A stretch of 64,000 bases of DNA from Escherichia coli. Its GTDB lineage: Bacteria; Pseudomonadota; Gammaproteobacteria; Enterobacterales; Enterobacteriaceae. Under the pieces are notes generated by a model. It was given only the letters and a program-made list of their open reading frames with translations, made no database searches and was not told the origin of the DNA. The stretch lies in NCBI RefSeq assembly GCF_050920415.1, contig NZ_CP169309.1. One strand, 5' to 3'. The stretch's first letter is position 1. Each line of letters begins with the position of its first letter. Both the position numbers and the translations under genes were made by a program. Below, in pieces: positions 59,057 through 59,160 of the stretch.

Positions 59057-59102
59057 GAGTAAAAATGACTCGCTACACACAGCTGGCGAGTCATTTTTAC
59101 TC
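59057..59102. promoter_or_regulatory. ZraR enhancer: perfect 17-bp inverted repeat
   Basis: GAGTAAAAATGACTCGC (59057-59073) and GCGAGTCATTTTTACTC (59086-59102) are exact reverse complements separated by 12 bp, between the divergent zraS and zraP sigma-54 promoters. Confidence 0.8.
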
Positions 59103-59144
59103 GTTTATCATGTCATATTGCCCGTCATATCAGCGTTTCGCCGT

Positions 59145-59160
59145 TGGCACGAAAGATGCA
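59145..59160 (+). promoter_or_regulatory. Sigma-54 promoter of zraP
   Basis: TGGCAC-GAAAG-ATGCA, about 36 bp upstream of the zraP start. Confidence 0.75.

What the first reader, a model, noticed from the sequence alone, without database searches (positions are those of the whole stretch)
59057..59160. Perfect 17-bp inverted repeat between divergent sigma-54 promoters of zraP and zraSR
Two exact reverse-complement 17-mers (GAGTAAAAATGACTCGC / GCGAGTCATTTTTACTC) sit midway between a TGGCAC-N5-ATGCA promoter facing zraP and a TGGCAT-N5-CTGCT promoter facing zraSR. This is the expected enhancer for the ZraR bacterial enhancer-binding protein and is an unusually clean example of a bidirectional sigma-54 control region.
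Basis: partly seen in the sequence, partly recalled or inferred. Interest (0 to 1): 0.25.

Follow-up and report, generated by a model that had tools for sequence, protein, structure and literature searches.

The report
Known ZraR enhancer between zraP and zraSR
The perfect inverted repeat is real. It is the already-characterised pair of binding sites for the zinc/envelope-stress activator ZraR, placed between the two divergent sigma-54 promoters of zraP and zraSR, so this is a correct reading of a textbook element and not a discovery.

Summary
Exact reverse-complement 17-mers lie at 59057-59073 and 59086-59102. This is the longest perfect inverted repeat in the 64 kb window. The TGGCAC-N5-ATGCA motif (59145-59160, + strand) faces zraP, and TGGCAT-N5-CTGCT (58990-59005, - strand) faces zraS.

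The flanking genes score as NCBIfam equivalogs of ZraR, ZraS and ZraP. Both arms are identical to E. coli K-12. In K-12 the strongest published ZraR ChIP-exo peak (4201786-4201818) falls inside the repeat (4201782-4201827). Published sigma-54 ChIP-seq peaks carry the zraS motif unchanged and the zraP motif with one spacer-base difference.

Across 49 enterobacterial loci only four intergenic islands stay conserved: the two promoters and two 17-bp sites, consensus YGRGTAAAAATGACYCR. The site centres are 31-33 bp apart, about three helical turns. The variable positions of the two sites do not covary, so selection acts on two protein sites and not on a hairpin. The perfect 17/17 match is a by-product of two near-consensus sites in Escherichia.

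New details are modest: a cross-genus consensus, quantised spacing, a one-turn indel on the zraP side, and an unexplained semi-conserved block at 59020-59043.

The parts
56260..57585 (-). zraR: sigma-54-dependent response regulator (bacterial enhancer-binding protein), 441 aa
   Evidence: NCBIfam NF007689 ZraR equivalog, 987 bits against a cut-off of 760. Pfam Response_reg, Sigma54_activat, AAA_lid_14 and HTH_8. PDB 1OJL ZraR, E = 8e-177.
57582..58958 (-). zraS: sensor histidine kinase, 458 aa
   Evidence: NCBIfam NF007688 ZraS equivalog, 881 bits against a cut-off of 479. Annotated zraS in the 100%-identical record NZ_CP169399.
58990..59005 (-). zraSR sigma-54 promoter, TGGCATgatttCTGCT. The -24 GG is at 59004-59003 and the -12 GC at 58992-58991. 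The inferred start is about 58979.
   Evidence: Identical to the K-12 sigma-54 ChIP-seq motif OS39. Nearly invariant in 44 non-Escherichia rows as conserved island 58989-59005. The transcription start is inferred from the motif, not measured.
59020..59043 (.). Semi-conserved bipartite block (TTACCCTG ... ACACAAAG) between the zraS promoter and the left ZraR site. Function unknown.
   Evidence: Column conservation is 0.6-0.9 against about 0.3-0.5 for the surrounding intergenic DNA. There is no IHF consensus match.
59056..59072 (+). Left ZraR site, TGAGTAAAAATGACTCG, centre 59064. This is -85 from the inferred zraS start and -107 from the inferred zraP start.
   Evidence: The core GTAAAAATGAC is invariant or nearly so in 49 loci. 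It lies under the K-12 ZraR ChIP-exo peak.
59073..59086 (.). 14-bp spacer between the two sites. Its sequence is unconstrained.
   Evidence: All three window-versus-K-12 differences in the element fall here, at 59077, 59079 and 59084. There is no conservation across genera.
59087..59103 (-). Right ZraR site, CGAGTCATTTTTACTCG on the + strand (CGAGTAAAAATGACTCG on the - strand), centre 59095. This is -76 from the inferred zraP start and -116 from the inferred zraS start.
   Evidence: Conserved island 59090-59103.
59145..59160 (+). zraP sigma-54 promoter, TGGCACgaaagATGCA. The -24 GG is at 59146-59147 and the -12 GC at 59158-59159. The inferred start is about 59171.
   Evidence: K-12 ChIP-seq motif OS38 differs by one spacer base. 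Conserved island 59145-59161.
59196..59615 (+). zraP: periplasmic zinc-dependent chaperone and signalling modulator, 139 aa. The Shine-Dalgarno GGAGG is at 59184-59188.
   Evidence: NCBIfam NF008584 ZraP equivalog, 279.5 bits against a cut-off of 200. Pfam Metal_resist. The annotation in NZ_CP169399 starts at the same ATG.

Best explanation
The repeat is the upstream activating sequence (enhancer) of the zraP-zraSR regulon. It consists of two 17-bp imperfect-palindrome sites for dimers of the NtrC-family activator ZraR. The sites are arranged head-to-head with centres 31 bp apart, about three helical turns, so they sit on the same face of the DNA.

The proposed mechanism has four steps. (1) Zinc or envelope stress makes ZraS phosphorylate ZraR. 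(2) ZraR~P dimers on the two sites nucleate the active AAA+ ring. (3) The ring contacts, by DNA looping, a sigma-54 RNA polymerase closed complex waiting at either promoter: zraP to the right or zraSR to the left. (4) ATP hydrolysis opens that promoter.

One shared enhancer therefore gives both output (ZraP) and positive autoregulation (ZraSR).

Shown here or in cited data:
- the identity of the genes;
- sequence identity of the sites, and identity (zraS) or near-identity (zraP) of the promoter motifs, with K-12;
- ZraR occupancy of this repeat in K-12;
- sigma-54 occupancy of both promoters in K-12;
- purifying selection on exactly these four blocks.

Inferred from the NtrC paradigm:
- one dimer per site;
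- ring assembly;
- looping;
- the exact transcription starts.
For: - Anatomy.
- Gene identity.
- The arms are identical to K-12 and the spacer differs.
- ZraR ChIP-exo peak_9 at 4201786-4201818 lies inside the K-12 repeat at 4201782-4201827. zraP falls by log2 -12.7 and zraS by -3.2 in a zraR knockout with zinc (PMC7657598).
- Genomic SELEX found a single high-affinity ZraR target in this spacer; 81 of 86 clones carried it (PMC8249747).
- Sigma-54 ChIP-seq and ChIP-chip locate both promoters in E. coli and Salmonella.
- Phylogenetic footprint over 49 loci in about 10 genera: only the two promoters and the two sites are conserved. The consensus over 98 sites is YGRGTAAAAATGACYCR.
- Spacing across loci: site centres 31 bp (28 loci), 32 bp (19) or 33 bp (2) apart. 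The left site to zraS GG distance is 58.5-60.5 bp in 47 of 49 loci. The right site to zraP GG distance is 61.5-63.5 bp in most genera but 50.5-51.5 bp in Escherichia, a one-turn difference that keeps the helical phase.
- No sigma-70-like promoter was found in the region.
Against: - Nothing was measured in this strain. Binding, sigma-54 dependence and start sites are carried over from K-12 and Salmonella.
- The DNase footprint paper (Leonhartsberger 2001) could not be read, so its '14-bp spacer' description is from memory.
- No IHF consensus lies between the enhancer and either promoter, so how a loop of about 50-60 bp is closed is unexplained.
- A second ChIP-exo peak in K-12 (4201673-4201698, equivalent to window 59186-59211 at the zraP start codon) is not accounted for by the two sites.
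- The site centre AAAAATG is asymmetric yet invariant. A simple symmetric-dimer model does not predict this.
Confidence: 0.95

Rival explanations
1. The repeat acts as a nucleic-acid structure: a cruciform in DNA, or an RNA hairpin or bidirectional intrinsic terminator between the two genes.
For: The single strand folds into a 21-pair hairpin of -18.8 kcal/mol with a z-score of -9. The simple terminator scan flags 59056-59103 followed by TTTATCAT.
Against: The element lies upstream of both inferred starts and between divergently transcribed genes, so no known transcript crosses it.

Across 49 loci the variable positions of the left and right arms agree no more often than chance. Observed against expected agreement is 0.78/0.71, 0.57/0.53, 0.31/0.42 and 0.65/0.65. 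Only 3 of 49 loci have identical 17-mers. The longest perfect arm found ranges from none of at least 9 nt (three loci) to 21 nt.

The conserved positions are fixed bases, not compensating pairs. That is the signature of protein recognition.
Confidence: 0.02
2. The repeat is mainly the operator of a different regulator, for example CpxR, whose box is GTAAA-N5-GTAAA, or BaeR. On this reading ZraR acts elsewhere.
For: Each arm contains one GTAAA. zraP expression changes in a baeR knockout, and cross-talk between the Zra and Cpx systems is discussed in PMC7657598.
Against: The two GTAAA pentamers are inverted and 31 bp apart, not direct repeats about 10 bp apart. The ZraR ChIP-exo peak sits on the repeat and ZraR SELEX selects this spacer. 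The conserved unit is a 17-bp site much longer than GTAAA.
Confidence: 0.02
3. The repeat is a chance palindrome or the remnant of a repetitive or mobile element.
For: Intergenic regions of E. coli carry REP-type palindromes. The same window has naRNA4/REP-type matches and a polymorphic 146-bp insert at 62095-62240.
Against: The intergenic region carrying it is single-copy: 5419 of 5426 E. coli genomes have it, with a median of one place per genome. There is no other match with up to 3 mismatches in the window. It occupies the same syntenic position with fixed distances to both promoters in about 10 genera. Its arm length exceeds everything in the simulations.
Confidence: 0.01

Closest known systems
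ZraR (HydG) upstream activating sequence in the zraP-zraSR (hydHG) intergenic region of E. coli K-12 (Leonhartsberger et al. 2001; ChIP-exo in PMC7657598; gSELEX in PMC8249747)
   Same: This is the same locus and the same gene order. Both 17-nt arms are identical. The zraS promoter motif is identical and the zraP motif differs by one spacer base. All spacings are the same.
   Different: There are three substitutions in the unconstrained spacer, and the intergenic region is about 93% identical overall. The window comes from a divergent Escherichia lineage: the intergenic region is at least 95% identical in only 18 of the 5419 E. coli genomes that match it.
NtrC enhancer at glnAp2: two strong 17-bp dyad sites, TGCACCA-N3-TGGTGCA, centred near -140 and -108 (from established knowledge of the NtrC paradigm)
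   Same: The activator is of the same family, with receiver, AAA+ and Fis-type HTH domains. Both have two 17-bp sites about three helical turns apart (32 bp against 31-33 bp here) upstream of a sigma-54 promoter. Neither has an obvious IHF site.
   Different: The recognition sequence is different. The ZraR enhancer is closer to its promoters (-76/-107 and -85/-116) and serves two divergent sigma-54 promoters instead of one.
FhlA-dependent divergent hyc/hyp control region of E. coli (UAS CATTTCGTACGAAATG; listed in PMC4987338)
   Same: It is a divergent pair of sigma-54 promoters controlled by one enhancer-binding protein.
   Different: As I recall, each FhlA-controlled operon has its own UAS. 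Here a single two-site enhancer is shared. FhlA is not a two-component response regulator.

Membership tests
ZraR-dependent bidirectional sigma-54 control region (zraP / zraSR) | It is flanked by divergent zraP and zraSR orthologues. | tested here: met
   NCBIfam equivalogs ZraR at 987 bits (cut-off 760), ZraS at 881 (479) and ZraP at 279.5 (200). Synteny purD-zraR-zraS / zraP-yjaH-hupA is as in K-12.
ZraR-dependent bidirectional sigma-54 control region (zraP / zraSR) | A -24 GG / -12 GC element (GG-N10-GC) faces each gene at a suitable distance. | tested here: met
   The elements are at 59145-59160 (+) and 58990-59005 (-). They match the experimentally located sigma-54 sites OS38 and OS39 of K-12 and the Salmonella sites. 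The inferred 5' UTRs of 25 and 21 nt equal the 'distance' values in that table.
ZraR-dependent bidirectional sigma-54 control region (zraP / zraSR) | It has two ZraR recognition sites with the sequence that ZraR occupies in vivo. | tested here: met
   The arms are identical to K-12. The K-12 ChIP-exo peak lies inside them. The consensus is conserved in 98 sites.
ZraR-dependent bidirectional sigma-54 control region (zraP / zraSR) | The cognate activator has a sigma-54 interaction (AAA+) domain and a C-terminal HTH. | tested here: met
   Pfam Sigma54_activat (E = 4e-74) and HTH_8 (E = 6e-15). PDB 1OJL.
ZraR-dependent bidirectional sigma-54 control region (zraP / zraSR) | ZraR~P physically binds these sites, and activation is zinc-, ZraR- and RpoN-dependent, in this strain. 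| not testable with these tools
   Only K-12 and Salmonella experiments are available.
Intrinsic terminator / structured RNA | It is transcribed, and the stem is maintained by compensatory changes. | tested here: not met
   It lies upstream of both promoters. There is no left/right covariation in 49 loci. No Rfam family matches here.
IHF-assisted sigma-54 promoter | An IHF consensus (WATCAANNNNTTR) lies between enhancer and promoter. | tested here: not met
   There is no match with up to 1 mismatch in 58985-59170 on either strand. This was a simple consensus scan only.

The most novel reading that the evidence does not exclude
The enhancer may have design rules that, as far as I know, have not been described.

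- The 17-bp site has an invariant asymmetric centre (AAAAATG) whose polarity is always head-to-head.
- The spacing between the sites is quantised to 31-33 bp.
- An 11-bp indel on the zraP side separates Escherichia from other genera and preserves the helical phase.
- A semi-conserved bipartite block (59020-59043) exists only on the zraS side.

Together these could mean that an extra factor or an intrinsic bend sets the very different outputs of the two promoters. In a zraR knockout the change is log2 -12.7 for zraP against -3.2 for zraS.
Probability: 0.2. Interest if true: 0.3.

Novelty: already known. Interest (0 to 1): 0.08.

Why it matters
The finding matters little as a discovery. It re-identifies a control region characterised since 2001 and present in RegulonDB-based analyses.

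It is useful as a positive control: the first-stage reader called promoters and enhancer correctly from raw sequence.

The cross-genus consensus (YGRGTAAAAATGACYCR, two sites 31-33 bp apart) could fill the 'not known' entry for the ZraR enhancer in the Salmonella bEBP table of PMC4987338. It could also help annotate zra loci and zinc/lead biosensor promoters.

Tried and rejected
- **Hairpin, cruciform or terminator.** The fold is strong and the scan flags it. I rejected this reading because of the element's position and the lack of arm covariation.
- **IHF site.** No consensus match was found.
- **Sigma-70 promoters in the spacer.** None was found.
- **Further copies of the site in the window.** None was found with up to 3 mismatches.
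- **Reading the primary footprint paper.** PubMed id 11243806 is not held. Searches for the site sequence or for phrases such as 'ZraR binding site' gave only primer hits or a secondary citation.
- **Internal dyad covariation within a site (positions 3/15 and 1/17).** The tabulation shows mixed combinations: A/T 43, A/C 25, G/C 16, G/T 9. No formal test was run, so this is inconclusive.
- **Is the divergent ZraS sensor domain peculiar to this strain?** No. It is the majority E. coli allele, and K-12 carries the minority one.
- **The Deltaproteobacteria, Bacillota and other distant loci L051-L061.** These are kinase-domain matches only and were not used.

Full report
**1. What is in the sequence**

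Reading 58500-59700 shows GAGTAAAAATGACTCGC at 59057-59073. Its exact reverse complement, GCGAGTCATTTTTACTC, is at 59086-59102, with 12 nt between them.

The repeat finder extends the pair to 20 nt at 95% complementarity. The pattern search finds only these two copies in 64 kb, even with 3 mismatches allowed.

It is the longest perfect inverted repeat in the window with a spacer of 40 nt or less: 17 nt against 13 nt for the next. The longest arm in 30 first-order Markov simulations of the window was 12 nt.

TGGCACgaaagATGCA lies at 59145-59160 on the + strand, and TGGCATgatttCTGCT at 58990-59005 on the - strand. Both have the GG-N10-GC geometry of sigma-54 promoters. They are the only matches to TGGCAY-N6-TGCW in the window. 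Two matches are not rare by chance, since 29 of 100 shuffles gave as many, so the argument rests on where they are and which way they face.

- The zraS promoter lies outside the stated range 59057-59160.
- The repeat centre (59079.5) is 76 bp from the zraS GG and 67 bp from the zraP GG, so it is only roughly midway.
- zraP starts at 59196. The 186-aa ORF 59055-59615 is an artefact of the ORF rule.

**2. The genes**

The three flanking ORFs score far above the curated cut-offs of the NCBIfam equivalog models:
- ZraR: 56260-57585, - strand.
- ZraS: 57582-58958, - strand.
- ZraP: 59196-59615, + strand.

ZraR carries Response_reg, Sigma54_activat, AAA_lid_14 and HTH_8 domains. It matches the solved ZraR structure 1OJL at E = 8e-177.

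The intergenic region is 100% identical to E. coli MFDS1022581, where the genes are annotated zraR, zraS and zraP. The neighbours purD on one side and yjaH, hupA, yjaG, nfi and hemE on the other match K-12.

**3. Comparison with E. coli K-12 and published experiments**

The window and K-12 align without internal gaps across the 237-nt spacer at about 93% identity. Both arms are identical. The three differences inside the 46-bp element (59077, 59079, 59084) all fall in the loop.

In K-12 the arms lie at 4201782-4201798 and 4201811-4201827.

The published evidence is as follows:
- **ZraR occupancy.** The supplement of PMC7657598 lists the strongest ZraR ChIP-exo peak, peak_9 with signal/noise 73, at 4201786-4201818. 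That is inside the repeat and spans roughly from one site centre to the other.
- **ZraR-dependent expression.** In a zraR knockout with zinc the same supplement gives log2 changes of -12.7 for zraP and -3.2 for zraS (main text).
- **In vitro selection.** Genomic SELEX with purified ZraR gave this spacer as the single high-affinity target, in 81 of 86 clones (PMC8249747).
- **Sigma-54 in E. coli.** ChIP-seq in K-12 reports peaks OS38 (TTGGCACGGAAGATGCA, zraP) and OS39 (ATGGCATGATTTCTGCT, zraS) (PMC4591121). The window differs from OS38 by one base in the N5 spacer and is identical to OS39.
- **Sigma-54 in Salmonella.** ChIP-chip gives the equivalent sites there (PMC3844500).

Taking C of the GC as -12, the inferred starts are about 59171 and about 58979. 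That gives 5' UTRs of 25 and 21 nt, the same numbers as the 'distance' column of that ChIP-seq table. The starts are inferred, not measured here.

The primary footprint paper (Leonhartsberger et al. 2001, J Mol Biol 307:93) is not in the library. From memory, its abstract says that HydG binds 'two inverted repeats separated by a 14 bp spacer'. PMC5391612 confirms only that HydG binds the zraP-hydHG intergenic region.

**4. Comparative anatomy**

A ZraS-based scan of one genome per species returned 48 enterobacterial loci (L003-L050). They come from Escherichia, Citrobacter, Salmonella, Klebsiella, Kluyvera, Kosakonia, Trabulsiella, Phytobacter, Pluralibacter and Entomohabitans.

I aligned the spacers and scored conservation without the Escherichia rows. 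Most of the spacer has diverged beyond recognition. Four islands remain:
- 58989-59005, the zraS promoter.
- 59059-59069, the left site core.
- 59090-59103, the right site.
- 59145-59161, the zraP promoter.

The Shine-Dalgarno sequence and the first codons of zraP are also conserved.

Ninety-eight sites give the consensus YGRGTAAAAATGACYCR. Positions 2, 4-14 and 16 are invariant or nearly so.

Each site is a 17-bp imperfect palindrome, CGAGTnAnnnTnACTCG. In the window the sites occupy 59056-59072 and 59087-59103, which leaves exactly 14 bp (59073-59086) between them. That fits the recalled published description.

The two sites are always head-to-head. The spacings across loci are:
- **Site centre to site centre:** 31 bp in 28 loci, 32 bp in 19 and 33 bp in 2. 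This is close to three helical turns.
- **Left-site centre to the zraS GG:** 58.5-60.5 bp in 47 of 49 loci.
- **Right-site centre to the zraP GG:** 61.5-63.5 bp in most genera, but 50.5-51.5 bp in the six Escherichia sequences. The difference is one helical turn.

**5. Structure or protein site?**

The strand folds well, at -18.8 kcal/mol with z = -9, and the simple terminator scan flags it. Three observations argue against a structural role:
- The element lies upstream of both promoters, between divergent genes.
- At the variable positions the left and right sites of a genome agree no more often than expected by chance.
- Only 3 of 49 loci have identical 17-mers. The longest perfect arm found ranges from none of at least 9 nt to 21 nt.

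Conservation is of fixed bases in each site, not of pairing. The perfect 17/17 repeat in Escherichia is a by-product of two near-consensus sites. No Rfam family matches here.

**6. Mechanism**

By analogy with NtrC at glnAp2, which has two 17-bp dyad sites about 32 bp apart (established knowledge), the likely mechanism is as follows. ZraR~P dimers on the two sites nucleate the AAA+ ring; 1OJL is, as I recall, a hexamer. The ring then contacts, by looping, a sigma-54 holoenzyme closed complex at either promoter and opens it by ATP hydrolysis.

One enhancer thus drives both the effector, zraP, and positive autoregulation of zraSR. Gene identity, occupancy in K-12 and selective constraint are shown. 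Stoichiometry, looping and starts are inferred.

Four points remain open:
- There is no IHF consensus between the enhancer and either promoter.
- The site centre is invariant yet asymmetric.
- A second K-12 ChIP-exo peak sits at the zraP start codon.
- A semi-conserved block at 59020-59043 exists on the zraS side only.

**7. Verdict**

The element is already known and sits at the orthologous locus, so it is a member of the known system and not a variant of it.

The additions made here are a cross-genus consensus, the spacing rules, the one-turn indel and the extra semi-conserved block. They are modest refinements. Interest is low.

Noticed in passing
window 59020-59043: A semi-conserved bipartite block (TTACCCTG-N8-ACACAAAG; conservation 0.6-0.9 across about 10 genera) lies between the zraS sigma-54 promoter and the left ZraR site, at about -41 to -64 from the inferred zraS start. 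There is no counterpart on the zraP side, no IHF match, and no resemblance to the ZraR site.
   Followed up: partly
window 59104-59144 compared with loci L007-L050: The distance from the right ZraR site to the zraP -24 element is 50.5-51.5 bp in Escherichia but 61.5-63.5 bp in most other genera. This 11-bp (one helical turn) indel preserves the phase. The zraS side is almost fixed at 58.5-60.5 bp.
   Followed up: yes
window 58380-58700 (zraS codons for roughly residues 87-193 of the periplasmic sensor domain): ZraS is 84% identical to K-12 ZraS overall, and almost all differences, plus a 7-aa length difference, fall in the periplasmic domain; the cytoplasmic half is nearly identical. The window's allele is the common one, at least 95% identical in 4183 of 5426 E. 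coli genomes, so K-12 carries the minority allele. The sensor domain therefore has two sharply distinct allele classes.
   Followed up: partly
K-12 4201673-4201698, equivalent to window 59186-59211: The published ZraR ChIP-exo data list a second, weaker peak (signal/noise 34) over the zraP ribosome-binding site and start codon, downstream of the promoter. No ZraR-like site is there. It may reflect cross-linking through the looped promoter complex.
   Followed up: no
window 62095-62240: A 146-bp insert with internal inverted repeats (tgaggccgg...ccggcctca) lies between nfi and hemE, where K-12 has only 9 bp. Matches to it occur in 1288 of 5426 E. coli genomes: at least 95% identical in 305 and 80-90% in 983. 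It is probably a small repetitive intergenic element.
   Followed up: partly
whole window compared with K-12: The window is only about 95-97% identical to K-12 over 20 kb. Its zra spacer is at least 95% identical in only 18 of the 5419 E. coli genomes that match it. The source is therefore a divergent Escherichia lineage, although the closest record is labelled E. coli.
   Followed up: partly
window 47661-52756 (- strand), 29856-30052 (+), 27812-27961 (+), 15903-15973 and 42300-42377 (-): The Rfam scan found an rRNA operon corresponding to rrnE of K-12 (16S, a tRNA in the spacer, 23S, 5S), with a StyR-44 match next to the 23S gene. It also found a lysine riboswitch, the sRNA STnc430 (which contains the window's second-longest perfect inverted repeat, 27926-27954) and two naRNA4/REP-type elements.
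   Followed up: no
window 59055-59615: The mechanical ORF list extends zraP upstream to an ATG inside the left ZraR site, giving 186 aa. The real start is ATG 59196, with GGAGG at 59184-59188. This is supported by cross-genus conservation and by the RefSeq annotation.
   Followed up: yes
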